DNA of 55,473 nt from Candidatus Omnitrophota bacterium. GTDB lineage: Bacteria > Omnitrophota > Gorgyraeia > Zapsychrales > Fredricksoniimonadaceae. Under the pieces are notes generated by a model. That model did not search any database and was not told the origin of the DNA. It saw only the letters and a program-made list of their open reading frames with translations. A program made the position numbers and the translations under genes. The DNA lies in contig JABDFL010000004.1 of NCBI GenBank assembly GCA_013286575.1, positions 1 to 55,473 on the forward strand, written 5' to 3'. Positions 17,101-45,338 of the stretch are shown one piece after another; position 1 is the stretch's first letter; each line of letters begins with the position of its first letter.

Positions 17101-19273
17101 GCGTGCCGATTCCAAGATTATCCAAATCATCGGAAGGGAAAATCACATTCATCGCCGCATCACCTGCCCTCATCACCGCCACGCCGCCTGAGCTCATGGC
17201 ACGGTCCATACCGGCCATAGCAATTTGATTGTACCGCGCTAAATATTGATATTGGTAAACGTCAATCAGTAAATACTTCGCCCCTTGCCGCCTTGCTTGT
17301 TCTAAACAAATTTTTCCAAGAAAAATTTCATTCCCTATTAATTCATAATAAGACCTCATGTATTCATTGACTCGAACGGGCCAGGCTTGGGCTGCAAGAA
17401 AATCATCAAGCTCATCTTCACGATAATATTCTTTCGTATCAGATATTCTCTCCATGACTCTAAAAAAATAATATAACATCGTTTTCTCATCAGGATTTTC
17501 TTGAAAAAACCTTATTACCTCTTCTCTTAACCCTTCCATCCTGACCCTCAAATCCCTGATACTATCTTGAAAGTCAACGGATCTCTTAGAGCTCGCACTG
17601 ACTATATTTAAATTGACTTTGTCACGAACAAGGGCAAATATAGCAGGACCGTAAAGGGCCCTCATCAGCTTATCAGCAGCTTCCCGGGCATCAATACGGT
17701 TTGTGTAGGCTGCCGAAGCACCACTAAAGATCATTTCTTCTCTTTCTTTAAAGAGACGAATATCGTCCTTGATCTCTTTTTCCTCCATATTTACTGCGAT
17801 AATCAGTTTCCCGGTACTATTTTCTGCCCTCATGTTCTTTAAGAATTCCGGGTAGGAGGAATCGAATTTTAATGTATTAAGCCTATACATAAGTTCTTTG
17901 ACCTCCTCTACATCCGGTTTTTTATCGCTAAAAAACACCTTCTTGATTTTTTCGACCAGATAAGCGGGAACACCGGGCCAACGATATTCAGCAGTACCTT
18001 CGGCTGCTTTTACAGGAGTCGGCAGGAATGCCGTAGTGGCTATTGTAGCCGCTGCTAATCCTAAGGCTTCCCGCCTTGTCAACACAGTGTCCAATTGCAT
18101 TGTTAAACCGAGTAGGCCTGTTTTATTGTTCGGAGGAGTCGCGGTTGCTGTGATGGCCGGATCCAATAAGGTCACGCCGCCGGAGAAATATTGCCTCGGG
18201 ACGAGCTGCTGTGTTATGGGGTCTTGTTCTTCTTTAATGTAGTTATAAGCGCCTTTTTTGAAGGCTTGGAGGTAGCGTTGGTAAATGACTTGGGGGGTAA
18301 AACTTTTATACCCTATTCCTACCACCTTACTTTTGTTTTCGTATACTTGTGCCAGGATGCTTGCTTTGATTTTCTTTTTGTACCAGGTGGCGAGGATGAG
18401 AGAATTATAGACCTGCCGTAGTTGGGCGAAATTTTTGTCCTGGTTGACTTCTTTGGTGAGTTCGGGGATGACTACTTCACGGACGACCTGGGAGCCGAGG
18501 GAACTGATACTGTTAAAAGATTGCTTCGCTGCGCTCGCAATGACACTGCTTTGCAATGACGAAGGAATTGGGCCTTTTGACACATTCTTGCTAAACGCTA
18601 AATAATCCTGCTCAAGCATGACTTTTAATTTGCTTTCGATGATATAGGCGGTGCCGGCTTGGGCATTTTCGTAGACTACGGCTTTTTCGGGGACTATCCA
18701 GACTTTGTTAAAAGTGTTGACCGGAATATTTGTTGTGCCGAATTTCTTTTGGGCTTCCTCATAAATCCGTTTCCAGAATTTCCTGCCTATTTCTCCTTCA
18801 GGATAAATTAAGCTGGCGGTGATTTGTTTGAGCATATAATCTTCAGCCAACAGGTCACGGCCCATTTCGGTTAGGCCGAAGCTTTGCGGAATGATGCGAT
18901 TTTTTTCGTAGGGGCTTAAGTTTACCCAGAGATCTTTTTCAGGGATGGTGAGGCTGGCGAGGAAGTATTTTATTAGTTTGGTGGATTCTTCTTTGATAAA
19001 AGATTGCTTCGTCGCTTCGGCTCCTCGCAATGACACCGAGGACAAATCACCTTTGTCTAAAATAAAATCGAAACGGAAAGGATTGTCGGGATGGATTTTG
19101 AGGCCTTTTAGTATGGGAGGATTGAATTCCGGGCTTAGGGGGACCATTATCCCTGGTTTTGGCAATAGGAATTCACCTGCCTGGGCCGTTGGTATAGGGC
19201 CAAACGTATTAGCTAAAAAAGCAATAATTAGCCCAAGAGCTATATTAGTTCTTAAATTTAGATACTTTCTCAT
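14093..19273 (-). CDS. giant exoprotein A (1726 aa): signal peptide, conserved N-module, unknown regions, two kinase-like domains, SAM methyltransferase, conserved C-module
   Basis: An uninterrupted 5.2-kb ORF starting at ATG 19271-19273. The signal peptide is IALGLIIAFLANTFGPIPTAQA/GEF. The N- and C-modules are shared with 24032..29623 and 32693..36358. The MTase motif I is MDIFAGDGSF. Confidence 0.9.
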   Translation of the reverse strand: MRKYLNLRTNIALGLIIAFLANTFGPIPTAQAGEFLLPKPGIMVPLSPEFNPPILKGLKIHPDNPFRFDFILDKGDLSSVSLRGAEATKQSFIKEESTKLIKYFLASLTIPEKDLWVNLSPYEKNRIIPQSFGLTEMGRDLLAEDYMLKQITASLIYPEGEIGRKFWKRIYEEAQKKFGTTNIPVNTFNKVWIVPEKAVVYENAQAGTAYIIESKLKVMLEQDYLAFSKNVSKGPIPSSLQSSVIASAAKQSFNSISSLGSQVVREVVIPELTKEVNQDKNFAQLRQVYNSLILATWYKKKIKASILAQVYENKSKVVGIGYKSFTPQVIYQRYLQAFKKGAYNYIKEEQDPITQQLVPRQYFSGGVTLLDPAITATATPPNNKTGLLGLTMQLDTVLTRREALGLAAATIATTAFLPTPVKAAEGTAEYRWPGVPAYLVEKIKKVFFSDKKPDVEEVKELMYRLNTLKFDSSYPEFLKNMRAENSTGKLIIAVNMEEKEIKDDIRLFKEREEMIFSGASAAYTNRIDAREAADKLMRALYGPAIFALVRDKVNLNIVSASSKRSVDFQDSIRDLRVRMEGLREEVIRFFQENPDEKTMLYYFFRVMERISDTKEYYREDELDDFLAAQAWPVRVNEYMRSYYELIGNEIFLGKICLEQARRQGAKYLLIDVYQYQYLARYNQIAMAGMDRAMSSGGVAVMRAGDAAMNVIFPSDDLDNLGIGTHLMSQSNNAVNRRVFAKYAGAKAFSVPMLHLQPKALQRLEKALAIYWKSHPGKSIIIYADDRDIETIKVMINTGIAGRVFLNKGPVSFEDHRYDLLTMLHEGVILRKIRARNDAATNAAPKFDIDKLSSDFFEKSRLISKDRRVYRLNGPEGEEYYVKAYDNTDNTANENLSYSIARKIGVYVPDTRLIKGVEAVPLEKKFGFKSPSGLLFLVIQPIEEYAETISSEHYGLEELVAFSYLMQHTDIDFRKHHNYEIFSVNGKAHLVAFDLLTSFDKTFSTDYFYQYPVGTFLRHFNGRFDIEKLARLINFCEHLDLNEFEREFAHFKDPGSKRQALVKTQKNMRVTLIQFLKKALAQDEDLKDDLSKRQRITSLIRRLEADAPDQAIQLDLQGQRIEYGRNLLSGLKRKSNVVRNGEAMEVPEPRAQDILKSRYANDLLAEIPLGTKGLGAGTQALVLETPEGDVIRFNKDQTPRPDIDGVLQPTVSKKIGGWTVERLPKVITAGITNAGVRRLNAKLEAQGYVLIDVSYRNYDSGNLGMLPNGEMVVIDSGAVQKKPIRDAAMSPIIKGAFVNGVFNPHPEMDDRARVKAIAGKVRQINESIARNPLNRELPSPLLKVRSQYPDMRIRINALPVGLDQADIRVLQDVRISKEIISNPMEGTAFRGDRRDVWYDTDLQRYVPLNLEEEVWLYDILKLLKGNEFEDETFLSAPRSMPLSYWYDWSVRNTRPKQAYNEFIHPMAISAVVSLVDEMAAKGQKDINMMDIFAGDGSFIEKFHQALVRHFQGRDMPRMHYWLAEGNEQNLNVLDAVRKDFKERLSMYIQIIPKNLLEGESLFSSEDNVPKMDIITSIGGGFNFEVASREQALALVSEVHDFLNDGGKLLITGFSEVHLSARIFEERGFTTINTSIPLNYLRAGRLKQMYIFSKKDLQPADVAMKVEDKGGIDLTSDKALTVQNNGQGIKFHIDPAQLQELQNAPGFVPVIISIEPMLNLRKFLGATS
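18516..18565. repeat. family-1 mini-repeat copy inside giant gene A (codons ~238-253)
   Basis: aaaagattgcttcgctgcgctcgcaatgacactgctttgcaatgacgaagg has the same AGATTGC...CTCGCAATGACAC termini as the other copies. Confidence 0.65.
18999..19036. repeat. family-1 mini-repeat copy inside giant gene A (codons ~79-92)
   Basis: aaagattgcttcgtcgcttcggctcctcgcaatgacac is nearly identical to the aceF right arm. Confidence 0.7.
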
Positions 19274-19289
19274 ATAGACAAAGTATGCC

Positions 19290-20777
19290 CTATTTTCTCA
19301 TATTTTGCCACTTTTGGGGGGCAGGAGACGCGAGGATGTATAGGGACGTGCCAAAGGGGTATTGGTGCTTTAGGACGTGGCTGGCTTCCCATTGCAGGAG
19401 CTTGAATAGCCATTCATTGATCTTAGCTGAAGGCTTATCAAAGGTATCACACTGGGGTTTGTCATTTTTAGCAAATACTTTTCGAACCAATCGTATAATA
19501 GCCACGGGAAAAAATATCAACACAAATAAATAGCCGCTGCGCTTTATTTCAAAACCACTGTCTTTGACTAAATCCTCAAAATCCCGCCTGCTATAGCGGC
19601 GCATATGGGAAAGGGCCTCATCATGAGGGCTCCATAGAAAACGGAACGCGGGAACAGCCAGGACCAGCATCCCATCGTCTTTAAGGACACGTTTAAATTC
19701 AGCCATGGCCGCCACCGGGTCTGCCACATGCTCAAGCACATCCAGGGAAATAATCACATCGAAAGCTTGGGAACGGAAACCCAGGTTATGCAAATTCCCC
19801 TGGACCAGGCGCTGAACACCGTTGGTGCGGCAGAATTCCAGGGCCTCAAGCACCACATCATAGCCCACATAAAACACCCTTGAACGCAAAAATTCCATGT
19901 TATGCCCTGTGCCGCAACCGGCATCCAGGACAAATTTATTATCAAAGTTAAATCCGGACAATATTTCTTTAAAAAAATGGCCTTTGGCCTTAAACCACCA
20001 ATGTTCTTTTTCCTGGTTATACATATTGGTCAGTTCTTTCACCGACATATGCTCGGCATGGGTATTGATAGCCACGTAGTGCCAGTTTTTAATCTGGATA
20101 ATGTTCCAAAACATCCGTATGGAGTCCTTCACGAGATCGACCTTGCTGCCATCCACATGCGACCAGTTGACAGCCACTTCCTTGATGCGTAAATCCATTT
20201 TTTGGGCCAGGTACAATACCTCTAAATCAAAGCCATACCCCTCCAGATAAAGGCGGCCGAAAAGGTCCGGAATCACTGACGCGCGGAACATTTTAAAACC
20301 GCATTGGGTGTCTTTGATGCCCTTAATAAGCATCCGAGAAACAAGAAAATTGAAAATGGTCCCCATCCATTTCCGGTAAGACAAGGTCTTGACCTGGGAT
20401 TTTCCGTCGGTCAAGACCCTGGAACCTATGACGATATCATAACCCTTTTCAAAGCAATTTAAATGGCGCTCGATCTCTTCCGGTCCGGTGGAGCCGTCAG
20501 CGTCCAAAAACAATACGATCTCACCCCGGGCCGCGAAGAAACCCTGTTTGACGGCATAACCCTTGCCGTGGTTACGGCCGAGGCTCATCACTTTCAAGGC
20601 AGGGAATTCTTTTTGAAAAGATAAAGCCACGTCAGCTGTTTTGTCTTTACTCCCGTCATCAACCACCATAATTTCGTAAGAATGCGCTGACCGGCGGCAA
20701 AAACCAATAACAGTCTTTAAAAAACGGGGTAAGCGTTCTTGTTCATCTTTGGATGGGATTATAATTGAGATATTCAC
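19290..20777 (-). CDS. GT2 glycosyltransferase (polyprenyl/dolichyl-phosphate sugar transferase-like) fused to a class I SAM methyltransferase
   Basis: 495 aa. The N-terminal part has IIIPSKDEQERL...VVDDGSKDKT...FLDADGS (GT-A DxD). The C-terminal part has VLDAGCGTGHNMEFL, FDVIISLDVLEHV and a terminal TM helix. The gene ends 16 nt before the start of giant gene A. Confidence 0.8.
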   Translation of the reverse strand: MNISIIIPSKDEQERLPRFLKTVIGFCRRSAHSYEIMVVDDGSKDKTADVALSFQKEFPALKVMSLGRNHGKGYAVKQGFFAARGEIVLFLDADGSTGPEEIERHLNCFEKGYDIVIGSRVLTDGKSQVKTLSYRKWMGTIFNFLVSRMLIKGIKDTQCGFKMFRASVIPDLFGRLYLEGYGFDLEVLYLAQKMDLRIKEVAVNWSHVDGSKVDLVKDSIRMFWNIIQIKNWHYVAINTHAEHMSVKELTNMYNQEKEHWWFKAKGHFFKEILSGFNFDNKFVLDAGCGTGHNMEFLRSRVFYVGYDVVLEALEFCRTNGVQRLVQGNLHNLGFRSQAFDVIISLDVLEHVADPVAAMAEFKRVLKDDGMLVLAVPAFRFLWSPHDEALSHMRRYSRRDFEDLVKDSGFEIKRSGYLFVLIFFPVAIIRLVRKVFAKNDKPQCDTFDKPSAKINEWLFKLLQWEASHVLKHQYPFGTSLYILASPAPQKWQNMRK

Positions 20778-20784
20778 TGCGGAA

Positions 20785-21156
20785 TTAAATTTCCTGGCCT
20801 ATGGTATCTTTGACGACGCGGCGTATATCGTCGACCTCAAATGGTTTCTTTAAACATTCCACCGCCCCCAGGGAACGGGCCTGTTTGCGTTTTTCATCCA
20901 GGCTATAACCGCTCATCATCACCACCGGCAATCCCGGGCTGACAGCCCTTATTTTCTTGAGGACTTCCACACCATCATTGTCCGGCATTACCATATCCAT
21001 AAACGCGATATCAAATTGATGGTTTTTAACAGCTTCCATTGCCTCCGGAAGGTCATGGACGACCGTAATATGATGGCCGTAATAGCCCATGGTCAGGTTG
21101 AAAAAATCCCCGATGACTTTTTTATCGTCGACAACTAAAATATGAAGATGCTTCAT
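20785..21156 (-). CDS. stand-alone response regulator receiver (CheY-like)
   Basis: 123 aa with ILVVDD, the phospho-acceptor region DIAFMDMVMPDNDG, and KKPF. Confidence 0.85.
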   Translation of the reverse strand: MKHLHILVVDDKKVIGDFFNLTMGYYGHHITVVHDLPEAMEAVKNHQFDIAFMDMVMPDNDGVEVLKKIRAVSPGLPVVMMSGYSLDEKRKQARSLGAVECLKKPFEVDDIRRVVKDTIGQEI

Positions 21157-22025
21157 GCAGCACTCTCCTGATTAATTTTATCAAGATGGACACAGGGCAG
21201 CTTGACCGTAAAAATGGTGCCTTCCTGATTGCTTTGGACACTGATATTCCCCCCGTGTTCGTTGACCAAATCCTGGCACAAGGCCAAACCGATGCCTGAT
21301 CCCTGGGGTTTGGTGGAAAAAAACGGGTCAAAGATCCTGGCCTGGTGTTCGCGGGTAATGCCGGGCCCGTTATCTTTAAAAATGACAACAGCCTGGTTAT
21401 TTTCAACGTCATATTTCGAAGTCACCAGCAGGGTGCGCAGGGCCCCGTGAGGCATTTCACTTAAGGCCTCCATGGCATTGACGACGAGATTCATAAATAC
21501 CTGCTGCAGGTGCAAGGCATCCCCGAAAATCAACGGTACGGAATCGTCTAATTGCAGGTCCCATCCGATGCGGCGGATGCGCAGCTCATCGAGCAGTAAA
21601 TGAAAAGACTTATGGACGACAGTATTGATATTGATGTCTGTTTTCTGGATTTTCCGGTGGCGGATCAATTCCATCAGGTTGGCCAGCATGTCCTTGATGT
21701 AAAAAGACTGCTCATCCATCACACAGACAGGCTTATAAAAAGGGGAGTTGATGTCCATTTCTTTTTTCATAAAACGCACAAAACCATGGATGGCCGTGAT
21801 GGGCTGGCTGATTTGATGCAAAAGCCCGGCGCTCAGGGCCGCGACCGCCCCTTTTTTGCCGCTATCCATCAATTTGACCTGGGCTGTTTTTAATTCCTTG
21901 ATCGTGGTTTCCAGCTGCCGGTTTTTTTCTTTAAGGGCATGGTTAAGCCTGATGTTCTGGATAAAAAACCAGGCCAGGACAGCCAGCAGGATACAAACAA
22001 TGGAAAGATAAATGATGTGCAGCAT
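21153..22025 (-). CDS. sensor histidine kinase, minimal (one TM, no extracytoplasmic sensor domain)
   Basis: 290 aa with one TM helix, then a coiled coil. It has the H-box LLHQISQPITAIHGF, N-box VNAMEA, G1 DNGPGI and G2 GSGIGLALC. It overlaps the response regulator gene by 4 nt. Confidence 0.85.
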   Translation of the reverse strand: MLHIIYLSIVCILLAVLAWFFIQNIRLNHALKEKNRQLETTIKELKTAQVKLMDSGKKGAVAALSAGLLHQISQPITAIHGFVRFMKKEMDINSPFYKPVCVMDEQSFYIKDMLANLMELIRHRKIQKTDININTVVHKSFHLLLDELRIRRIGWDLQLDDSVPLIFGDALHLQQVFMNLVVNAMEALSEMPHGALRTLLVTSKYDVENNQAVVIFKDNGPGITREHQARIFDPFFSTKPQGSGIGLALCQDLVNEHGGNISVQSNQEGTIFTVKLPCVHLDKINQESAA

Positions 22026-23011
22026 TAGATTCCTTTAAAATCAAGCTTGTCCCCCACCTTCCAGTTATGAGAGGTGGTGTAACCGCTGTTAATTTCCAAA
22101 ACATAACGGGCTTTTCTGTCAGGCGTGTAAACCGGGCAAGGGTCACTCGTGCAAGCAGGGATATCATGGCCTATAAAGACAATATGGCCGTCGAGGCTTA
22201 TCCACAACATGTCCAGATTAAATTGCATATTTTTCATCCAGAATGACTGAAAGTCATCAAAAGTAAAAATAAAAAGCATGCCCTTGTCCCGGCCTAAACC
22301 TGTGCGGTACATCAACCCGCGGTCCATGTCCGCCTGTTTAGAAACCACCTCGACGCTCACGCAATCGTCCAGATGACAGACCTGCGGAGGCACTGCACCG
22401 GCATGGCAAACGCCGGAAAGCAAAAATATAAAAAAGAGCGCACTCACTCCAAATTTTTTCAGCATTGCTGCCAGCTTGGCCAAAGGCAGGCCTACCACGT
22501 TAAAATAACAACCCTCGATGCGCGGGATAAAAAGGGCGCCTTTGCCCTCGATATCAAAACCGCCTGCTTTATCCAGGGGAGAAACAAGCTGATGATAACG
22601 GTCGATCGCCTGATCAGTCAGTTTGGTCATAAACACCTTTGTTTTTTCCCAACCCATCTCGCGGCGTCCGGTCCCTGCATCGATGACAGCCACGCCTGAA
22701 TACACCCAATGCGGCCGGGCCATCAATTCTTTAAGATTCTTTTTCGCTTCCTGCATATTGCGAGGTTTAAGAATAAGCCTGCCCTTAGAAGAAAGCACCA
22801 CCGTATCTGAGCCGATGATTATCCCCTCGCCCAGGCGCTGGGCCACTTCCCTGGCTTTTCTCAAAGCATTGACCTGGACAAGATGGGCACAGCCATGGGT
22901 CAAACGCGTGATTTCCCGGGCCCGGCTTGGGGTGACTGTAAAAGGCAGCCCCAATATTTTCATAAGCTTTCGACGCTGAGGGCTAGCCGAAGCCAGGACG
23001 ATCTTTTTCAT
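22025..23011 (-). CDS. maf: Maf-like nucleoside-triphosphate pyrophosphatase fused in frame to a DUF192-type domain
   Basis: Residues 1-180 are Maf-like (IVLASASPQRRKLM...GGFDIEGKG...GLP). Residues 183-204 look like a signal peptide (MLKKFGVSALFFIFLLSGVCHA). The rest is DUF192-like (GMLFIF...MKNMQFNLDMLWI...YVLEINSG). Confidence 0.75.
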   Translation of the reverse strand: MKKIVLASASPQRRKLMKILGLPFTVTPSRAREITRLTHGCAHLVQVNALRKAREVAQRLGEGIIIGSDTVVLSSKGRLILKPRNMQEAKKNLKELMARPHWVYSGVAVIDAGTGRREMGWEKTKVFMTKLTDQAIDRYHQLVSPLDKAGGFDIEGKGALFIPRIEGCYFNVVGLPLAKLAAMLKKFGVSALFFIFLLSGVCHAGAVPPQVCHLDDCVSVEVVSKQADMDRGLMYRTGLGRDKGMLFIFTFDDFQSFWMKNMQFNLDMLWISLDGHIVFIGHDIPACTSDPCPVYTPDRKARYVLEINSGYTTSHNWKVGDKLDFKGI

Positions 23012-23565
23012 TGAAGGAATTCAGCAATAGTAAAAATGGATTTCAAAGGCACATGATACTTGGCCAAGGCCTCCTGGGCGCCTTCACCCCGGTCGATGAT
23101 ACAGATGGCTTGTTTAATTTTGATATTCATCTTCTGCAGCACTTCAATCGATTCCACAAAAGCCTTGCCGGTGGTTGCCACATCATCAATGATCACCACA
23201 GACCCGGCTTCCGGAAGTAACGGGCCTTCGACCTGCTGCTGCTTGCCGTGCGCTTTGGGCTGCTTGCGGATGATAAAGGTGTTGATAGGACGGCCTGCCT
23301 GGTGGCTTAAAGAGGCAATGGCCCCCACCATAGGGTCAGCGCCCAGGGTAGGGCCGCCGATGGCATCGGGCATATCTTTGCTGATCATATCCAGCATAAT
23401 GCGCGCGGTCAAATACGCTCCCGGGGCAGAAAGGGTCACGAGACGGGCATCGAGGTAAAAGTTACTCTCTTTTCCCGATGATAAAATAAATTTACCCTTG
23501 GAGAAAGCCTGTGTCTTCAGGAGGCGGAATAATTCTTTTCTGTCATTGTCTATAGGTGTGTGCAT
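23008..23565 (-). CDS. pyrE: orotate phosphoribosyltransferase
   Basis: 185 aa with GKFILSSGKESNFYLD and the PRPP loop VVIIDDVATTGKA. Confidence 0.9.
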   Translation of the reverse strand: MHTPIDNDRKELFRLLKTQAFSKGKFILSSGKESNFYLDARLVTLSAPGAYLTARIMLDMISKDMPDAIGGPTLGADPMVGAIASLSHQAGRPINTFIIRKQPKAHGKQQQVEGPLLPEAGSVVIIDDVATTGKAFVESIEVLQKMNIKIKQAICIIDRGEGAQEALAKYHVPLKSIFTIAEFLQ

Positions 23566-23861
23566 TAAAATTGAGGGAGCTCCAGGTTGCGGCCATGGAT
23601 CTCGACTAAGAGCAACATGCGGAATTTTAACAGGGCTTTGTAGTCTTTGTATTCTTTAGGACTGAAACCGGATGTGGTATGAAAGGAAGAGCTCGCCTGG
23701 ATTTCCACCAGCGTATTTTCATAGGTATCAATGAGCTCATCATCGGTGAGCTTGGTGATAGCCGATTTATCTAAAATGATCACGTCTGATGGGTACTCAG
23801 CCATGACCAGGGGTGTGAAAGATAAAACCATCATCATCGCTAAAGCAAATTTTTTATGCAT
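23565..23861 (-). CDS. small secreted hypothetical protein
   Basis: 98 aa with the signal peptide FALAMMMVLSFTPLVMA/EY. Its stop overlaps the pyrE start by 1 nt. I recognise no family. Confidence 0.5.
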   Translation of the reverse strand: MHKKFALAMMMVLSFTPLVMAEYPSDVIILDKSAITKLTDDELIDTYENTLVEIQASSSFHTTSGFSPKEYKDYKALLKFRMLLLVEIHGRNLELPQF

Positions 23862-24031
23862 ATGCCCCCTGGTTAATTGGTCCTTTAAAATCTCTCCTGA
23901 GTCGATTAATTATATGGTAACACTATGTTGTCTGTCAAGTTATGTGGAGCTATCTTTGAAAATCATCTTTTGAATACAAAAACGCCCTTTAAGTTACTGT
24001 TTAGGTAGAAATTCGCTATAAAAACTTAATC

Positions 24032-27000
24032 TTATTTAAGTGTAGTACTTTGGGTCAAACCAAGAAATTGGGAAAGACTCTTAAGTGGCTGGATATTAAT
24101 AATCACCGGCACAAAACCTGGAGCATTTTGAAGTTGCTGAAGCATGGCTGGGTCTAAATGAAATCTAATTTCACTTCCACTGTTTTGTGTCTGTAAATTC
24201 ATATTGGCAGGGGTTAGGTCGATACCCCCTTTAGCAGTCATGGCTCCATCTGTTAGCTCTTTCCAAGCATCGTGACTTGTTACCTCAATCCTCGGAAATT
24301 TAACCATTGCATCTATTCGATTGGCCAGTTGATCAATAGGTTCGGTATCTACCTTATTATCTAAAAAAGGCTTAATAACGTAAGAAGAAGCACCACCAAA
24401 AATATCGCTTTTATCATCGACAAGCAGTCGATATTTAAACAAACCAATCGGTTTATACTCATTGTACTTCTCACTATACTTTTTGAATAAACTTTGATAA
24501 TACTCCTTTCTAACGCTATTTGATACTCCTGGATTCCAGGCTGATAGTCCATTATCTCCTGTAATAATCAATTCAAATAAACCATACATTTCACTGTTGG
24601 ATAATAAATATTTTCTGACAGCTTTTTTGGGTGAACGGGTCCACAAAACAAGCCGATATCCCATTGTCTTCAATTTATTCAATTCATCAATGATGCCGGG
24701 TCTTATAATTGATACGGAACCAAGAAACGTCCTTCTCTTATCGAGAATTGTATGATCCATATCAAAAACGACGGTAGGCCTCTCTCTAGACATAGTCCGT
24801 TCATTCTTAATAAACTGTTCTTCATAAACACTCCCATCGATGAAGCCATTTTGATCAATGACATTTTTCTTGCCTTGGGTTGAACTATCCGTGCCGGCCT
24901 CTTCATTAATTGAATCTACTTTAAGAAGTTCTAAATCACGGCCATGTATCAAGACTACCGTGGAAACACTCGGGTACCTTTCAAAATAATAACCATCAAA
25001 ATGATGCATCATAAGATATACAGGCAAAAGATCTTCATGAGCTCCGCCAAAATTCAACTGAACCCACTTTTCATATTCTTTTTCACCAACGCCGTTAAGA
25101 TGAAAGAGTCTTTGCTGTCTTTGAATCCCCAAGGTTAAGACGTAGCTACCTGAATTCCTCATTGTTTTTATGGTAGCGTAATTAAAGGCTTTACGGTAAG
25201 AAGTTGTCAAAAACACACCCATGTGAGTATAAATATTGTTTTTGGCGCCAAATATTGAAGGCATTAATTCGCCCCTATCATTTATACGTTCAAGCTCTTC
25301 TCCGTCAACGCCTCTATAAAGTACTTCTGTGGCCTCATGAAATTCTTTTAAATCAAATCCAAAGAGTTTTTTTATAAAACGTGATGCCTTCCCTATAAGA
25401 AAAAAATACCATCTAACAGTGGTCTCTGAAAAGTCAGTTAAATAAAGATCAATAAAAGTATTGGCTCTTTGTATTTTTCTTGAAAACCAATTTATAAAAT
25501 AACTGGTGATTTTTTCTTGAATGTTTCCGTCACGATTCTCAGCAACACCCCAATCCTCTATGAATATCTTGGAAAAATACTCCGCCAACTGAGAATTCTC
25601 TAGCCTGATTCCCAATTCCTGATTACCATAATACGCCCTGGGTGTCAAATCTGAACTCCCTGTAATTACTGTATTATCAGCTATAAGCAACTTACGATGA
25701 TCAAAAAGACCTTTGGGGTTGCTCCATCTAACAGGCACACTGGAACTCTGTAATTTATCGTAGGCTGGCAAACTTCTAACGTAGGGAATATATAATGGAA
25801 ACAACTGAAATTTTTTCTCTACCCCATTTAGCAAAACCCTAATATCTATTTTGGGATCATTCCTGAGTTTCATCTTAAGAACTTGGACGATAAGATCATC
25901 GTTCAAATGCCATTGTGAAATATATATCCTCTTTTTTGCTTTAAGAATTTCCTGGATATAAGCAAAACGTGTATTATCTTCAATAGAACGTTCTCGCAAT
26001 ATTTGTCCCCAAGGATTCTTGGTTGCTCTAAAAGCATATCTTTGACCATGTGCCCAATACCAATTCTCCCAGAATATGTCCTCAAATTCTTTCAGGCCAT
26101 GAATAGAATGAACGATTAATCCTGCTGTTCTTCCTCTAAAGAAGCTTAAATTATCACAACCTATATAAACATATTGTCCATCGATTATTATCAATTTTTT
26201 ATGATCATCTGGAGAAGGTGCTGCCATCACAAATTGACGGTTTCTTTCTGGCCGATAAAAAATAATCTGCAGATTATTGATTTCTTCTTTTTGTATCGAT
26301 TGAATTAATTCTGATTGTTTCTTAGTGAGTCTTTTGACATTCTTACCTATAATGACTTTAACCTCTATTCCTTCTATAGCCTTTTGTTTTAATAAATCCC
26401 ATACGGAATTATCATGGAATGAATACATATCTATGAGTATGGACCTACGCGCGTCGGTCACCAATTGTCTAAGTATGCGCCCCCCATCAAAAGTCTCACC
26501 TATGGGCAATATGTGCACACCTTGATGCTCAATCCACCTAAGCCGATATTCTTCTTGTGCAGGGCTTTTATCATTAGACACCATTGCTTCATCAGGTTTT
26601 AAGTTCTGAACTGAGATGGCTGAAGTTTCATCAAAAAAATAAAATCGTGAACGGGAATTCATATTAGCTCTTGCTTCTTCCCTACCAAGTATTCTGCCGT
26701 CCGTTGAATCATAAATATTCCCAGAAAAATGATCTAACAAAGCATTGGCCTCAAAAAACATCAATCCGTCTGAGATGTCTTGTCCCTTTTCGTGTAAAAT
26801 CTGGTTTAATGGTTTTTGGGATATTAATTCTTTGATGAGTTCTTTATTCTCTTCAGTTTTAGCCTGCCCTTTAATTACGGCCCCCAACATACTTTCCGCC
26901 ATTATTAATATCAACCGTTGGACCCTTCTTCCCAAATCTGATTGGGTAATAAGGCCTTCTCTTAACAATAAAGCCCATTCTTCAACAACATTATTCGCAA

Positions 27001-29623
27001 ATATACTATCCAAAATAGTTTTGTTTATATCGTTTAAAACCGCTGTCTCAAAATGTGCTTTCTTTGTGGAAGAATAGATAAATACTGCATGACGAACCCA
27101 TTTATTTACCAACGGTGGTCTCATTAGCCTTTGAACAATTCCTATCTCTCTAAAAAGTGTTTCACTTGTTTCATTAATCCTCACTTCCAGTTCCGTATCT
27201 TTTTTAGGCACAGATTCCGATAACGTCACAATGATCACTTCCTTGGCTCCAGCATCCAATAATTTTCTCCGGATTTCCGTGGAAGTAAAACCCGTCCCCC
27301 AATGATCGTCCACAAGCAGTATCGTTTTCCCTCTTATTTGATCTAAATCTTTAATTTCATAAGCATCAATCACATTTAAAGCCTTGTTTAACAGACCTTT
27401 AACTAACTTCTGTTCTCTTCTCCGATCTATTTTTACAACAGATGAATTACCAACTGAAATATGGGATTTTTCTGATAAAACCATTAACAAAGGATCTAAT
27501 TGATTTTGCTGACCGTTTAATCGCGGGACACCAATAATTAAGTCTGGTTTAAGATTTTGAACACTCAAAGCTCGAATCACTTTTTCTGAAAATTTATCAG
27601 CCAATTGAAGCATTGCTTCAACATTCTTTTTAGTTTCAAAATATTGTATTGAAAAATTATCATAAATAAAGTTTGGATGGCTATGTGGAAACAAAACATT
27701 GAAGGTAATTACTGGGTGTTTGTAAGAAGTCAGTGACAAATTACTTTCAGCGGTGTTCAAATTCGCTATGCCATATTTCAACAATTCCGTAACCCAATAA
27801 TATCCAACGTCAGCTGAAACACTTTTCCCGGTAAACATAAAAGAAGGGCTTTCTTCATAACTGCTTTTGGCAGCCGACGAAAGATAATTAAAAACACCTG
27901 TTTTGACCAAGTCATCCTGTGTCTCAAAATATATTCTCTGGATCAACGTTCGGATAACTTCTAATACTTCTTCATGTTTTTGCGTTTCTACTTCATATTG
28001 TTTTAAAAGACTTGCTAAGGTATCAAGCTTTGATTCCACCGGCTCCGTTCCTGGCATCACACTATTTAAAATGGCTTGATACCTTTGCGCTGTCTCACTT
28101 AAACCTCTTATACGTAACCTAAAAACTTCAAAAGCAACTTTTAAAGCCAAATATTCTCTATTAAAAAGACCCTGCCCACGATTTTGAGCGATCTTGTAAG
28201 CTTCTTTGGAAATATAATCAATACGTCCCTTACTAACAATCCAATAAAATGAATCACTTGCCGGATTTAAAACAAACTCAGCTGGGACAACCCCTCTCCC
28301 TCTATCTGTAGCGATATAATCTGTGAAAAAAATGGGCTGATAATAAATTTTATCTCCCGATTTTTTAATTCTTATTAAACCAAACTCTTTACTAATAACT
28401 AACTGTCCATTTTGTAATTGACTATATAAAACAATACCATCTCTATACTCCAATGATGCACTCATCGCTGGGTCAATTCTGACATTAACTATTTCACTAT
28501 CATTACCGGAAGGCATGTTCCATTGATGCAAAATTATCATGGCCGAATCAATTTTCAAGATTGTCATATTAAGCAATACCCCACCCGAAAAATATTTCCT
28601 TGGAATAGTCTCTTGAGTCACAGGGTCTTGTTCTTCTTTAATATAGTTATAAACACCTTTTTTAAACGCCTGTAAATACCGTTGATAAATTTTTTGCGTT
28701 TCTTGCGGGTCATCAATATTCACTCCAGCCACCTTCTTCTTATCGGCATACACCTGCTCTAGAATACAGTCCTTAATTTTATTTTTGTACCAAGTGGCTA
28801 AGATGAGACTGTTATAAATTTGGCGTAATTGAGAGAAATTTTTGTTCTCGTTAACTTCTTTTGTTAATTCGGGGATGACGATTTCGCGGACGATTTGGGA
28901 GCCTAAAGCACTCGTGTTCTGGATTCCCGCTTTCGCAGGAATGACATTGTGAGAGAGTGCTAGGTAATCTTGCTCAAGCATTACCTTCAATTTACTTTCA
29001 ACAACATACGCCGTACCAGCCTTAGCATTCTCATATACCACAGCTTTTTCTGGCACAATCCAAACTTTATTAAATGTGTTGACGGGGATATTCGTTGTAC
29101 CAAATCTTTTCGTAACTTCTTCGTAAATACGTTTCCAAAATTTCTTACCAATCTCCCCTTCAGGATAGATTAGGCTGGCCGTTACCTGCTTGAGCATATA
29201 ATCTTCGGCCAGTAAATCCCTGCCCATCTCAGTCTGGCCAAATGATTCTGGGACTATGCGGTTTTTTTCGTAAGGACTTAGATTGACCCAGAGGTCTTTT
29301 TCAGGAATGGTTAAAGAGGCAAGGAAATACTTAATCAACCTACTAGATTCATCTTTGAGAGCGTCATTAGATAATTGGCTGTCACCTTTATCTAAGATAA
29401 AATCAAAACGAAATGGATTGTCAGGATGGACTTTGATTCCTTTAAGGACTGGCGGATTAAATACAGGACTCAAATACACCATTACCCCAGGCGCAGGCAG
29501 ACGAAATTCATCTGCCTTGACTTGAGGTATAGGACCAATTGTATTAGCAAAAAATACCAATAAAATGATAAAAGATTGCCCCGGCCTAAAAAACAGGCCT
29601 CGCAATGACATATAACTCCGCAT
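24032..29623 (-). CDS. giant exoprotein B (1863 aa): signal peptide, conserved N-module, ComF-like PRTase, double-HKD phospholipase D, ART-like, HAD/FCP1-like phosphatase, conserved C-module
   Basis: An uninterrupted 5.6-kb ORF with ATG at 29621-29623 and a second ATG at 29609-29611. Motifs are listed in the findings. The N- and C-modules are shared with the other two giant genes. Confidence 0.9.
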   Translation of the reverse strand: MRSYMSLRGLFFRPGQSFIILLVFFANTIGPIPQVKADEFRLPAPGVMVYLSPVFNPPVLKGIKVHPDNPFRFDFILDKGDSQLSNDALKDESSRLIKYFLASLTIPEKDLWVNLSPYEKNRIVPESFGQTEMGRDLLAEDYMLKQVTASLIYPEGEIGKKFWKRIYEEVTKRFGTTNIPVNTFNKVWIVPEKAVVYENAKAGTAYVVESKLKVMLEQDYLALSHNVIPAKAGIQNTSALGSQIVREIVIPELTKEVNENKNFSQLRQIYNSLILATWYKNKIKDCILEQVYADKKKVAGVNIDDPQETQKIYQRYLQAFKKGVYNYIKEEQDPVTQETIPRKYFSGGVLLNMTILKIDSAMIILHQWNMPSGNDSEIVNVRIDPAMSASLEYRDGIVLYSQLQNGQLVISKEFGLIRIKKSGDKIYYQPIFFTDYIATDRGRGVVPAEFVLNPASDSFYWIVSKGRIDYISKEAYKIAQNRGQGLFNREYLALKVAFEVFRLRIRGLSETAQRYQAILNSVMPGTEPVESKLDTLASLLKQYEVETQKHEEVLEVIRTLIQRIYFETQDDLVKTGVFNYLSSAAKSSYEESPSFMFTGKSVSADVGYYWVTELLKYGIANLNTAESNLSLTSYKHPVITFNVLFPHSHPNFIYDNFSIQYFETKKNVEAMLQLADKFSEKVIRALSVQNLKPDLIIGVPRLNGQQNQLDPLLMVLSEKSHISVGNSSVVKIDRRREQKLVKGLLNKALNVIDAYEIKDLDQIRGKTILLVDDHWGTGFTSTEIRRKLLDAGAKEVIIVTLSESVPKKDTELEVRINETSETLFREIGIVQRLMRPPLVNKWVRHAVFIYSSTKKAHFETAVLNDINKTILDSIFANNVVEEWALLLREGLITQSDLGRRVQRLILIMAESMLGAVIKGQAKTEENKELIKELISQKPLNQILHEKGQDISDGLMFFEANALLDHFSGNIYDSTDGRILGREEARANMNSRSRFYFFDETSAISVQNLKPDEAMVSNDKSPAQEEYRLRWIEHQGVHILPIGETFDGGRILRQLVTDARRSILIDMYSFHDNSVWDLLKQKAIEGIEVKVIIGKNVKRLTKKQSELIQSIQKEEINNLQIIFYRPERNRQFVMAAPSPDDHKKLIIIDGQYVYIGCDNLSFFRGRTAGLIVHSIHGLKEFEDIFWENWYWAHGQRYAFRATKNPWGQILRERSIEDNTRFAYIQEILKAKKRIYISQWHLNDDLIVQVLKMKLRNDPKIDIRVLLNGVEKKFQLFPLYIPYVRSLPAYDKLQSSSVPVRWSNPKGLFDHRKLLIADNTVITGSSDLTPRAYYGNQELGIRLENSQLAEYFSKIFIEDWGVAENRDGNIQEKITSYFINWFSRKIQRANTFIDLYLTDFSETTVRWYFFLIGKASRFIKKLFGFDLKEFHEATEVLYRGVDGEELERINDRGELMPSIFGAKNNIYTHMGVFLTTSYRKAFNYATIKTMRNSGSYVLTLGIQRQQRLFHLNGVGEKEYEKWVQLNFGGAHEDLLPVYLMMHHFDGYYFERYPSVSTVVLIHGRDLELLKVDSINEEAGTDSSTQGKKNVIDQNGFIDGSVYEEQFIKNERTMSRERPTVVFDMDHTILDKRRTFLGSVSIIRPGIIDELNKLKTMGYRLVLWTRSPKKAVRKYLLSNSEMYGLFELIITGDNGLSAWNPGVSNSVRKEYYQSLFKKYSEKYNEYKPIGLFKYRLLVDDKSDIFGGASSYVIKPFLDNKVDTEPIDQLANRIDAMVKFPRIEVTSHDAWKELTDGAMTAKGGIDLTPANMNLQTQNSGSEIRFHLDPAMLQQLQNAPGFVPVIINIQPLKSLSQFLGLTQSTTLK
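28921..28947. repeat. family-2 hairpin mini-repeat inside giant gene B (codons 227-235)
   Basis: ggattcccgctttcgcaggaatgacat has an 8-bp stem ATTCCCGC/GCAGGAAT (one mismatch) with a 4-nt loop. Confidence 0.7.
29571..29610. repeat. family-1-like variant at the 5' end of giant gene B
   Basis: aaagattgcc-ccggcctaaaaaacaggcc-tcgcaatgaca has conserved termini. Its interior is replaced by a GGCCT/AGGCC hairpin. Confidence 0.45.
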
Positions 29624-42191: not shown

Positions 42192-42200
42192 ATATGGTCT

Positions 42201-42228
42201 GGATTCCTGCTTTCGCGGGAATGACAAT
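42201..42228. repeat. family-2 hairpin mini-repeat, intergenic (between the PSP1 gene and metG)
   Basis: The sequence is ggattcctgctttcgcgggaatgacaat. Confidence 0.7.
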
Positions 42229-45094: not shown

Positions 45095-45305
45095 TACTTC
45101 AACTCCCCGATCCCCTTTTTACAAAAAAGAGGAAAAAAACGTTGGCAGGCTGATGCCGATATGTTCTTTTTGCGTATAAAAAATCTGACTATTCGCTTTC
45201 GGCTCAACTATATGCGTGACCAAGTTATTGGGAAACAACGTTTCCAGCATGAGCTAAGATTTTTAGCAATAAGAATATATCGGTGTCAGCCGTCCATGCG
45301 TGTCT

Positions 45306-45338
45306 GGATTCCCGACAAAAGCATTCGGGAATGACAAT
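45306..45338. repeat. family-2 variant hairpin just downstream of the cysS stop
   Basis: ggattcccga-caaaagcat-tcgggaatgacaat has a perfect 8-bp stem with a different loop. Confidence 0.6.

What the first reader, a model, noticed from the sequence alone, without database searches (positions are those of the whole stretch)
18515..28947. Two different palindromic mini-repeat families are inserted in frame at the same loop of the paralogous N-modules
Between the conserved blocks LEQDYLA and LGSQ(V/I)VRE, protein A reads FSKNVSKGPIPSSLQSSVIASAAKQSFNSISS. The underlying DNA there (18516-18565) is a family-1 repeat (AGATTGC...CTCGCAATGACAC). Protein B reads LSHNVIPAKAGIQNTSA, encoded by a family-2 hairpin repeat (28921-28947, GGATTCCCGC-TTTC-GCAGGAATGAC). 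Protein C has neither (LNKLGENINAQKNNTVRN). Protein A has a second in-frame family-1 copy at 18999-19036 (SVSLRGAEATKQSF), where B reads SQLSNDALK. So independent insertions of two repeat families have been tolerated, without frame disruption, in the same exposed segments. From memory, peptide signatures of this type (SLRGA..., VIASEAKQS, IPAKAGIQ, SFPRK.ESR) recur in hypothetical proteins of many uncultured bacteria, but I have not verified this here.
Basis: partly seen in the sequence, partly recalled or inferred. Interest (0 to 1): 0.7.

Follow-up and report, generated by a model that had tools for sequence, protein, structure and literature searches.

The report
Tagged hairpin repeats inside protein loops

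Summary
Proteins A (14093-19273, -) and B (24032-29623, -) carry in-frame copies of two short repeats at the loop between LEQDYLA and LGSQ(V/I)VRE. A has a further copy after FILDKGD. Paralogue C has none.

Both repeats belong to a known superfamily: the CGTC/TGTC-tagged REPs, which include Neisseria dRS3/NTS and the "Ssn-related motifs". Family 2 matches the NTS consensus at 26/28 bases. Family 1 has the same tag but only a 5-bp stem. In three unrelated genomic contexts from other bacteria, inverted family-1 copies flank a ~95-aa GIY-YIG nuclease gene.

In 1.1 Mb of related Omnitrophota DNA, 166 such elements occur. They are 6.2-fold denser in N-modules than elsewhere (p = 1.6e-25) and lie at three low-confidence loops.

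B's copy is old and inherited. A's loop copy lies in a ~90-140-nt tract of 98-100% identity with a homologue that is otherwise ~80% identical, which points to recent recombination.

In-frame tagged REPs are already described (Rickettsia RPE-4/-6). This is a new member of a known kind.

The parts
14093..19273 (-). Protein A (1726 aa): N-module (residues 1-~370), unannotated middle part and conserved C-terminal tail
   Evidence: ORF and translation. No Pfam hit. N-module homologues are named Candidatus Omnitrophica.
18514..18545 (-). F1 copy in A, site 2 (between LEQDYLA and LGSQVVRE); encodes VIASAAKQSF
   Evidence: AlphaFold gives coil with pLDDT <50 for residues 235-250. The 60-nt windows spanning it are 98-100% identical to L128.
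18546..18561 (-). Degenerate partial F1 copy (CGTCATTGCAAAGCAG) in tandem, directly 5' of the intact copy in gene orientation; encodes SSLQS
   Evidence: nested hit 18519-18560. It resembles the AAAGCAGTCT variant at 11326-11353.
18997..19035 (-). F1 copy in A, site 1 (after FILDKGD); encodes VSLRGAEATKQSF
   Evidence: It is absent or decayed in the closest homologue L128 (GPLRPEATK). It is present at the same place in P0002.
24032..29623 (-). Protein B (1863 aa): N-module, phosphoribosyltransferase and PLD domains, and C-terminal tail
28919..28946 (-). F2 copy (TGTC-ATTCCTGC-GAAA-GCGGGAAT-CCAG) in B, site 2; encodes VIPAKAGIQ
   Evidence: DNA fold -5.8 kcal/mol, z -2.8. It is coil between helices 217-224 and 236-259, pLDDT 69-75. 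L140 and L129 have it at the same nucleotide position.
29569..29610 (-). F1 copy with its own inner hairpin (GGCCT-TTTTTTA-AGGCC) in the signal-peptide n-region of B; encodes MSLRGLFFRPGQSF
   Evidence: pLDDT is 52 for residues 1-10.
32693..36358 (-). Protein C (1221 aa): third N-module paralogue, with no tagged repeat in its N-module
11326..11353 (+). Degenerate F1 copy (TGTCACTGCGAGCGAAGCAAAGCAGTCT), sense in the E2 gene; left half of a head-to-head dimer; encodes VTASEAKQS
11357..11396 (-). Intact F1 copy, antisense in the E2 gene; right half of the head-to-head dimer; encodes KIASSPSAPRND. It lies in the linker between the two lipoyl domains of pyruvate dehydrogenase E2 (11051-12691, +).
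   Evidence: The dimer folds at -19.6 kcal/mol, z -4.0.
42199..42226 (-). Extragenic F2 copy, 8 nt after the stop of the PSP1-like gene (42234-43034) and upstream of the ATG of metG (MSKFFVTTP)
45304..45336 (-). Extragenic F2 variant with a longer loop (ATTCCCGA-ATGCTTTTG-TCGGGAAT), 9 nt after the stop of cysS (45345-46751)
   Evidence: DNA fold -8.2 kcal/mol, z -4.35.

Best explanation
The segments are in-frame copies of short tagged hairpin repeats. They belong to the CGTC/TGTC-tagged REP superfamily, which covers Neisseria dRS3/NTS, Rickettsia RPE-4/-6 and the 'Ssn-related motifs'.

In other bacteria these repeats flank small single-domain GIY-YIG nucleases. Published work shows those nucleases cut the repeats as single-stranded DNA.

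In this Omnitrophota lineage the repeats are dispersed at about one per 6-7 kb, mostly with the GTCAT tag on the coding strand.
- Extragenic copies sit just 3' of genes.
- Intragenic copies persist only where 8-13 extra residues in an open frame do no harm, that is in disordered linkers and loops.

The N-module has three such loops, plus its signal-peptide n-region. These have accumulated copies of at least five tagged sub-families and of unrelated hairpin repeats.

Once present, a copy can follow several courses:
- vertical inheritance and decay (B's F2);
- gain of tandem or nested additions (A site 2, L129, L139);
- partial deletion;
- movement between N-modules by homologous recombination through the conserved flanks (A site 2 versus L128).

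Shown here: identity of the repeats, in-frame location, loop location, family-wide hot spots, inheritance and the recombination tract.

Inferred: mobilisation by a GIY-YIG nuclease in this genome, and neutrality of the inserted peptides.
For: Identity of the repeats:
- F2 matches the published NTS consensus CGTCATTCCCGCGMAVGCGGGAATCYRG at 26/28 bases (sequence; consensus from PMC11893778).
- F2 fits the CGTC-1 definition: a TGTC tag, an 8-bp stem starting AT, a 4-nt loop and a CCA tail (PMC3733652).
- F1 shares the tag and the AT-start stem.
- Inverted F1 copies flank a 95-96-aa GIY-YIG ORF (PF01541, E = 6e-18) in three independent contexts: L067, L206/L210 and L216-L225.

Insertion:
- Identical DNA occurs in extragenic positions and in other genes.
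- Loops without the repeat exist in homologues.

Loop location:
- AlphaFold of A and B gives mean pLDDT 78.9 and 77.7, with coil or low confidence at the sites.
- Length variation in 97 homologues is confined to positions after residue 77, after residue 234 and at ~321-325.

Census in 1.10 Mb of related loci:
- 216 hits against about 33 in a shuffle; 166 fall in five stem classes.
- 69 elements lie in 114 kb of N-modules against 97 in 991 kb elsewhere, a ratio of 6.2 with p = 1.6e-25. The enrichment survives collapsing to 90 clusters at 95% identity.
- 21 head-to-head dimers and 0 tail-to-tail, as published for CGTC REPs.

History:
- B versus L140 and L129: F2 sits at the same nucleotide and has diverged like its flanks.
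- A versus L128: 98-100% identity in the 60-nt windows from position 691 to ~810, inside flanks of 82-90%.
Against: - No GIY-YIG ORF was found in the window or in the 1.1 Mb of related loci. A cognate nuclease in this lineage is therefore not shown.
- The window copies fail the published degenerate SRM search pattern. The F2 copies fail by a single stem substitution. F1 fails because its stem is only 5 bp.
- F1 monomers do not fold better than shuffles.
- Unrelated hairpin repeats use the same loops, so a tag-specific mechanism cannot explain the hot spot alone.
- Frame use is skewed: 29 of 36 sense F2-class copies are in the VIPAKAGIQ frame. This could reflect selection on the peptide or shared ancestry rather than pure tolerance.
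Confidence: 0.8

Rival explanations
1. The hot spot arises from targeting, not only from tolerance. An existing tagged copy, or its GTCAT tag, attracts further insertions or replacements. This could happen through nuclease cleavage next to the tag or through recombination between tags. A loop that once received a copy then keeps collecting and swapping elements.
For: - Tandem and nested arrangements occur at the same nucleotide position. Examples are the partial plus full F1 in A, the partial plus full F2 in L001 and L184, F1 followed directly by F2 in L139, and a 24-nt insert inside the F2 loop in L129.
- Different sub-families occupy the same junction after GD(S) at site 1.
- Element density in N-modules (0.60 per kb) is, by my rough estimate, about 18 times that of other coding DNA and close to the extragenic density.
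- Published clustering of these repeats in Neisseria and Wolbachia (PMC3733652).
Against: - There is no conserved flanking motif and no target-site duplication.
- Hairpin repeats without the tag use the same loops.
- Other proteins carry copies only in obviously permissive places, such as the E2 linker and protein termini.
Confidence: 0.25
2. The inserted repeats are exapted. They provide a selected means of varying surface loops of a large secreted protein family, or the peptides or mRNA hairpins themselves have a function.
For: - The family is very large (1414 hits at E <= 1e-10) and is fused to many different C-terminal enzyme domains behind a signal peptide.
- 40 of 90 non-redundant modules carry at least one element.
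- Frame use is biased.
- A loop cassette has been exchanged recently.
Against: - B's F2 has drifted like its flanks and lost stem complementarity.
- Many family members have short plain loops.
- The loops are predicted to be disordered.
- No test of selection was possible.
Confidence: 0.12
3. The resemblance is convergent or low-complexity sequence, or an assembly artefact, and not insertion of repeat DNA.
For: None found. Repeats can cause mis-assembly in metagenomes in general.
Against: - There are exact multi-copy DNA matches where about zero are expected by chance.
- The same elements occur at the same positions in independently assembled metagenomes (L128, L140, L129/L130).
- The reading frames are intact over 1726 and 1863 codons.
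Confidence: 0.02

Closest known systems
CGTC-tagged REPs (families CGTC-1 to -4; Di Nocera, De Gregorio and Rocco 2013, PMC3733652), including Neisseria dRS3
   Same: F2 has the TGTC tag, an 8-bp stem beginning AT, a 4-nt loop and a CCA tail. Head-to-head dimers predominate and tail-to-tail dimers are absent. Extragenic copies lie within 20 nt of 3' gene ends. Intragenic in-frame copies were already reported for this superfamily.
   Different: The host phylum differs: that paper lists five phyla, and Omnitrophota is not among them. F1 has only a 5-bp stem and a long variable interior. In the loci sampled here most copies lie inside ORFs, and they concentrate in one protein family.
NTS / Ssn-related motifs with SsnA GIY-YIG single-strand nucleases (Chenal et al. 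2025, PMC11893778)
   Same: F2 matches the NTS consensus at 26/28 bases. In other phyla F1 flanks a ~95-aa single-domain GIY-YIG gene in inverted orientation, the same layout as NTS-ssnA-NTS.
   Different: The window copies do not match the published degenerate SRM pattern. No nuclease gene was found in the Omnitrophota DNA examined. I could not test whether the F1-flanked nuclease belongs to cd10448. That paper contains none of the terms I searched for intragenic or in-frame copies.
Rickettsia palindromic elements (RPE; Ogata et al. 2000/2002, cited from my own knowledge and through PMC10969869 and PMC3733652)
   Same: These are selfish palindromic repeats inserted in frame in many protein-coding genes at positions compatible with the fold. 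RPE-6 and RPE-4 are classed as CGTC-1 and CGTC-4.
   Different: The classic RPE-1 type is about 100-150 bp and encodes a conserved 30-50-residue peptide. The elements here are 28-42 nt. No comparable hot spot in one paralogous family came up in the RPE literature I read.
GTAG-tagged REPs / REPINs with RAYT transposases, and BIMEs
   Same: They are short extragenic hairpins, often in inverted pairs, that flank their presumed mobilising gene.
   Different: They carry a different tag (GTAG) and a different enzyme (an HUH tyrosine transposase), and they are mostly extragenic.
In-frame MITEs and small dispersed repeats (Coxiella QMITE, cyanobacterial Nezha and small dispersed repeats (SDRs); the SDRs are cited from my own knowledge)
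   Same: Small non-autonomous repeats are tolerated in frame, and nesting of elements within each other is seen.
   Different: Their sequences and terminal structure are unrelated, and they have no GTCAT...ATC tag.

Membership tests
CGTC-tagged REP, family CGTC-1 (for F2) | Unpaired 5' tag CGTC (TGTC in many copies) | tested here: met
   All 3 window copies start TGTC. In related loci 97% of 59 copies have T before GTC.
CGTC-tagged REP, family CGTC-1 (for F2) | Stem of 8-9 bp starting with AT, and a loop of 4-5 nt | tested here: met
   ATTCCYGC-GAAA-GCRGGAAT in two copies, each with one stem mismatch. The third copy has an 8-bp stem with a 9-nt loop.
CGTC-tagged REP, family CGTC-1 (for F2) | Short unpaired 3' tail, mostly CCA | tested here: met
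   All 3 window copies end CCAG. In related loci C is 81% and A is 86% at these positions.
CGTC-tagged REP superfamily (F1 and F2 together) | Dispersed multi-copy elements; head-to-head dimers predominant and tail-to-tail rare | tested here: met
   166 elements in 1.10 Mb, with 21 head-to-head, 0 tail-to-tail and 4 tandem pairs. The E2 copy pair is head-to-head.
CGTC-tagged REP superfamily (for F1) | Stem of 8-9 bp forming a stable hairpin | tested here: not met
   Only ATTGC/GCAAT (5 bp) pairs. Monomer folds are -2.4 and -2.7 kcal/mol, no better than shuffles. The tag and the AT-start stem are present.
NTS (Neisseria Transformation Sequence) | Match to CGTCATTCCCGCGMAVGCGGGAATCYRG with at most one mismatch (the authors' search criterion) | tested here: not met
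   Two window copies have 2 mismatches each (26/28): the first base is T, and there is one stem substitution. The commonest core in related loci, GTCATTCCCGCGAAAGCGGGAATC, matches the core exactly.
Ssn-related motif (SRM) | Match to the degenerate pattern HGTCWYN(0-2)YYVSBRHN(0-5)WNVSBRGN(0-2)RNCYNB | tested here: not met
   There are 0 matches in the window. The two GAAA-loop F2 copies fail by one stem substitution each. F1 does not fit the stem part.
Ssn-related motif (SRM) | Inverted copies flank a small single-domain GIY-YIG (ssn) gene | tested here: met
   Met for F1 in other phyla: L067, L206/L210 and L216-L225. Not seen in Omnitrophota DNA.
Ssn-related motif (SRM) | A cognate ssn gene in the same genome | tested here: inconclusive
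   No GIY-YIG ORF was found in the 55-kb window or in 1.1 Mb drawn from many related genomes. About one gene per genome would be expected, so this sample is too small.
Ssn-related motif (SRM) | Site-specific cleavage of the single-stranded repeat by the nuclease | not testable with these tools
   This needs purified protein and oligonucleotides.
Ssn nuclease family (cd10448) for the F1-flanked GIY-YIG protein | Membership of the CDD cd10448 clade | not testable with these tools
   Only Pfam PF01541 was confirmed. The nearest solved relatives are UPF0213 proteins at E = 3.6e-4.
Rickettsia palindromic elements | In-frame insertion into otherwise conserved genes at positions outside the fold core | tested here: met
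   This is a functional resemblance. Sequence relatedness to RPE-4/-6 rests on PMC3733652 and was not tested here.

The most novel reading that the evidence does not exclude
The N-module loops are maintained landing pads. A GIY-YIG (Ssn-type) nuclease cutting at the GTCAT tags, together with recombination through the conserved flanks, drives insertion, stacking and cassette exchange of hairpin repeats. This would give Omnitrophota a cheap way to diversify exposed loops of a very large secreted protein family.
Probability: 0.12. Interest if true: 0.75.

Novelty: new member of a known kind. Interest (0 to 1): 0.45.

Why it matters
- **Annotation.** It explains odd peptide strings that clutter annotations of uncultured bacteria. 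These include VIPAKAGIQ, SFPRKRES, LDSRFRGND, VIARSEATKQS, SLRGA..., VILSEAKDL, DSSATPQND and LSSPNALVGDP. All are translations of one superfamily of tagged hairpin repeats.
- **Host range.** It extends that superfamily to Omnitrophota.
- **New motif-nuclease pairing.** It ties a motif that the published search pattern does not capture (F1) to a very abundant GIY-YIG nuclease of about 95 aa that is conserved across phyla.
- **Evolutionary material.** One protein family absorbs such repeats at three loops, at roughly the extragenic density. This gives material for studying how selfish DNA becomes protein sequence.

The repeats and their in-frame tolerance are not new in kind.

Tried and rejected
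- Literature search for the peptide strings found nothing relevant. A search for the DNA strings led to the Ssn paper.
- The published SRM pattern gave no match in the window.
- A motif and HMM search for GIY-YIG ORFs found none in the window or the Omnitrophota loci.
- A protein search with the F1-flanked nuclease returned 7999 hits. None of the 120 listed was named Omnitrophota.
- An attempt to extend the window through its end genes failed. One protein is not on record. For the other, only a 2.4-kb contig was returned.
- Foldseek of the N-module against the PDB gave no match at E <= 0.001.
- Rfam found only a tmRNA and two tRNAs, and nothing at the repeats.
- No target-site duplication or flanking motif was found.
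- A CRISPR reading of F1 was considered because of its 32-nt length. I rejected it because copies occur as inverted pairs 20-30 nt apart and inside genes.
- An RNA-element reading was considered. F2 has a GNRA loop on one strand and F1 has a UUCG loop on the other. I did not pursue it because the two are inconsistent.
- I ran no further search on E2 orthologues, because that gene is peripheral to the finding.
Full report
**What is in the window**

The window is a bacterial chromosome piece with a tmRNA, two tRNAs and housekeeping genes. Homologues of its large proteins are named Candidatus Omnitrophica.

Three long minus-strand ORFs share an N-terminal module of about 370 residues behind a signal peptide, and a conserved C-terminal tail:
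- A: 14093-19273, 1726 aa.
- B: 24032-29623, 1863 aa.
- C: 32693-36358, 1221 aa.

The module has no Pfam match and no PDB fold match.

**Check of the observation**

All the stated sequences are there.

Family 1 (F1), read on the minus strand, is TGTCATTGCGAG-variable-GAAGCAATCTTTTA.
- It lies at 18514-18545 and encodes VIASAAKQSF in A.
- A degenerate partial copy lies in tandem at 18546-18561.
- Another copy lies at 18997-19035 and encodes VSLRGAEATKQSF.

Family 2 (F2), TGTCATTCCTGCGAAAGCGGGAATCCAG, lies at 28919-28946 and encodes VIPAKAGIQ in B.

In the three-way alignment A has 9 extra residues after FILDKGD (site 1). A also has about 15 extra residues between LEQDYLA and LGSQVVRE (site 2). 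C has no repeat.

Chance does not explain this.
- The patterns are expected 0.00-0.01 times in shuffles.
- F1 words are the most repeated 11-mers in the window.
- A generic scan for GTC + AT-stem ... complementary stem + C finds 10 hits, 8 of them real, against 1.06 in shuffles.

- An F1 copy lies in the signal-peptide n-region of B (29569-29610, MSLRGLFFRPGQSF).
- An F1 head-to-head pair lies at 11326-11396 in the linker between the two lipoyl domains of pyruvate dehydrogenase E2 (GVTASEAKQSDKKIASSPSAPRNDT).
- Two extragenic F2 copies lie at 42199-42226 and 45304-45336, 8-9 nt after the stops of a PSP1-like gene and cysS.

F1 is only weakly palindromic. It has a 5-bp stem, and its monomer fold is no better than shuffles. 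F2 is a clean 8-bp hairpin with a GAAA loop.

**What the repeats are**

A literature search for the DNA strings led to two papers.

Chenal et al. 2025 (PMC11893778):
- They define the Neisseria Transformation Sequence, CGTCATTCCCGCGMAVGCGGGAATCYRG, which contains the dRS3 repeat.
- They show that it and related "Ssn-related motifs" flank small GIY-YIG nucleases (SsnA).
- These nucleases cut the repeat as single-stranded DNA.

Di Nocera et al. 2013 (PMC3733652):
- They define the CGTC-tagged REP superfamily by a CGTC tag (often TGTC), an 8-9-bp stem starting AT, a 4-5-nt loop and a CCA tail.
- Head-to-head dimers predominate, and intragenic copies are known.
- Neisseria dRS3 and Rickettsia RPE-6 and RPE-4 are members.

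F2 fits this definition feature by feature and matches the NTS consensus at 26/28 bases.

F1 has the same tag and AT-start stem but a short stem and a variable interior. It fails the authors' degenerate search pattern. So do the F2 copies in the window; the two with the GAAA loop each fail by a single stem substitution.

**F1 elsewhere**

- Hosts include Alpha- and Gammaproteobacteria, Bacteroidota, Chloroflexota, Cyanobacteria, Patescibacteria, Planctomycetota, Zixibacteria and Desulfobacterota.
- By my estimate about 30 single hits could arise by chance in 596 Gb.
- Roughly a third of the listed loci have two or more copies, typically inverted pairs 20-30 nt apart. Chance cannot produce that.

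In these loci a 96-aa GIY-YIG ORF (PF01541, E = 6e-18) in a Planctomycetota contig is flanked on both sides by inverted F1 copies. Its homologues number at least 7999 and are about 70% identical across phyla. In two further unrelated gene contexts they show the same F1-gene-F1 layout.

F1 is therefore the flanking motif of a GIY-YIG nuclease family, laid out like NTS-ssnA-NTS. I could not test whether that nuclease falls in the published cd10448 clade.

**The loops as family-wide hot spots**

Among 120 homologues of the N-module, both loops vary greatly in length. They carry many repeat-type peptides, while many members have short plain loops such as SQLSNDALKDES.

In an alignment of 97 members, length variation is confined to these positions:
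- after residue 77: 31 members with at least 5 extra residues;
- after residue 234: 44 members;
- a third site at ~321-325;
- the region just after the signal peptide.

AlphaFold models of A and B (mean pLDDT 78.9 and 77.7) give the following:
- Site 2 is coil between two helices. pLDDT is below 50 in A and 69-75 in B, against more than 90 nearby.
- Site 1 is coil running into a helix.
- Site 3 has low confidence.

A metagenome scan gave 80 related loci. Together with four loci fetched earlier they total 1.10 Mb. The results are:
- The generic scan finds 216 hits against about 33 in a shuffle. Of these, 166 fall in five stem classes: ATTCC (F2), ATTGC (F1), ATTCT, ATCCT and ATCCC.
- These classes account for VIPAKAGIQ, SFPRKRES, LDSRFRGND, GFPTEAFGND, VIARSEATKQS, EIASSPSAPRND, VILSEAKDL, HPERSEGS, DSSATPQND and LSSPNALVGDP.
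- 69 elements lie in 114 kb of N-modules and 97 in the other 991 kb. That is 6.2-fold, with binomial p = 1.6e-25.
- 40 of 90 non-redundant modules carry at least one element.
- Within the module the anchored copies map to sites 1, 2 and 3, and one maps to the signal peptide. Nine copies could not be anchored automatically, but their flanking peptides match sites 1-3. Five more sit at one point of the C-terminal tail.
- Outside the modules, 51 of 97 are extragenic, about 14 more lie at doubtful ORF starts, and about 30 are truly intragenic.
- Head-to-head dimers number 21 and tail-to-tail 0. Singletons point with the genes 87 to 29.
- 59 of 159 loop segments share DNA with places outside N-modules, including hairpin repeats without the tag.
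- No flanking motif or target duplication is visible.

**History of the three copies in the finding**

- **B, site 2.** The closest modules (L140 at 84% protein identity; L129/L130 at 81%) have F2 at the same nucleotide. It has diverged about as much as its flanks, and L129 carries a 24-nt insert inside the F2 loop. This insertion is old and inherited.
- **A, site 2.** The closest module is L128, at about 79% DNA identity. It has the same partial-plus-full F1. The overlapping 60-nt windows from position 691 to ~810 are 98-100% identical. In the pairwise alignment near-identity runs for about 140 nt. Flanking windows are 82-90% identical. This indicates recent recombination of the loop segment.
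- **A, site 1.** L128 reads GPLRPEATK where A reads VSLRGAEATKQSFIKEESTK. This is either an empty site or a decayed remnant. P0002 has the copy in the same place.

**Mechanism**

The best-supported reading is as follows. These are selfish tagged hairpin repeats that spread through the genome. They survive in coding DNA only in open frames at disordered segments. They are then inherited, stacked, trimmed and exchanged by recombination.

Mobilisation by a GIY-YIG nuclease is inferred from the published association and from the F1-gene-F1 contexts found here. No such gene was seen in the Omnitrophota DNA examined.

Two readings remain open but less likely. One is that occupied loops attract further copies. 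The other is that the variation is selected.

Convergence and assembly artefact are excluded by the DNA matches and by independent assemblies.

**Novelty**

In-frame tagged REPs are already described: Rickettsia RPE-4/-6 and other species in PMC3733652, with a review in PMC10969869.

Three things are new here:
- the host phylum;
- the link between F1 and a GIY-YIG family;
- the concentration at three loops of one large protein family.

I rate this a new member of a known kind, of moderate interest.

Noticed in passing
window 11326-11396 (gene 11051-12691, +): Pyruvate dehydrogenase E2 carries an F1 head-to-head dimer in frame, in the Ala/Pro-rich linker between its two lipoyl domains (GVTASEAKQSDKKIASSPSAPRNDT). 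As single-stranded DNA the dimer folds at -19.6 kcal/mol.
   Followed up: partly
window 14093-19273, 24032-29623, 32693-36358: The N-module is a very large Omnitrophota family (1414 hits at E <= 1e-10). It has no Pfam domain and no PDB fold match. Homologues fuse it to different C-terminal domains (PLD, phosphoribosyltransferase, methyltransferase, HAD, kinase, HD). It ends in a conserved tail (GGIDLT...QNAPGFVPVII). Three copies lie within 22 kb here. Its function is unknown.
   Followed up: partly
window 29569-29610: An F1 copy lies in the signal-peptide n-region of protein B (MRSYMSLRGLFFRPGQSF...). Its interior is replaced by a separate 5-bp hairpin (GGCCT...AGGCC).
   Followed up: partly
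window 42188-42227: The mechanical ORF for metG starts at a TTG inside the F2 repeat. The likely true start is the ATG just downstream (MSKFFVTTP), so this F2 copy is extragenic.
   Followed up: partly
window, all eight elements; GC skew: Every intact tagged element in the window has its GTCAT tag on the minus strand. That is the strand of most genes and the G-rich strand. In related loci singletons are co-oriented with genes 87 to 29, and also outside ORFs (22 to 10). A strand bias tied to replication or transcription is possible.
   Followed up: partly
L067 5022-5419; L206 1100-1510; L216 1345-1937: A GIY-YIG nuclease of about 95 aa is flanked by inverted F1 copies. Its family has at least 7999 members, about 70% identical across phyla, many on very short contigs. 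This is what one expects of a mobile or repeated unit.
   Followed up: partly
L128 versus window 18460-18600: A tract of 98-100% DNA identity covers A's site-2 repeat, inside a gene that is otherwise about 80% identical. The 60-nt windows put it at ~90-120 nt, and the pairwise alignment shows ~140 nt of near-identity. This indicates recent exchange of a loop cassette between N-modules.
   Followed up: yes
L127 13193-13216, L139 11192-11215, L142 14274-14302, L144 11142-11175, L151 13173-13201: There is a further insertion hot spot in the conserved C-terminal tail of these proteins (NLQVK | MDSRLRGNDN | GIKF). All five copies there are antisense.
   Followed up: no
L142 site 2, L154 site 2, L169 site 2, L141 site 1: Hairpin repeats without the GTCAT tag also occupy the loops and recur elsewhere in the loci. 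Examples are CCCCCTCTTT...AAAGAGGGGG, GACCTTGTCAACCCCCGGGGTTGACAAGGTC and CGTAGAGACGAGGCATGCCTCGTCTCTACA.
   Followed up: partly
L124 8817-8840 and 9546-9571; L001 8741-8776 and 7135-7159: In related genomes other housekeeping genes carry in-frame copies. QueA has both VIPAKAGIQ and VIASGAQQS. In L001 a repeat overlaps the 3' end of panB and appears to supply its stop codon.
   Followed up: partly
L122, L123: Two related contigs show many split genes, for example PheT, ALAD and YicC in pieces. I suspect indel errors in long-read assemblies, so protein lengths from these sources may be unreliable.
   Followed up: no
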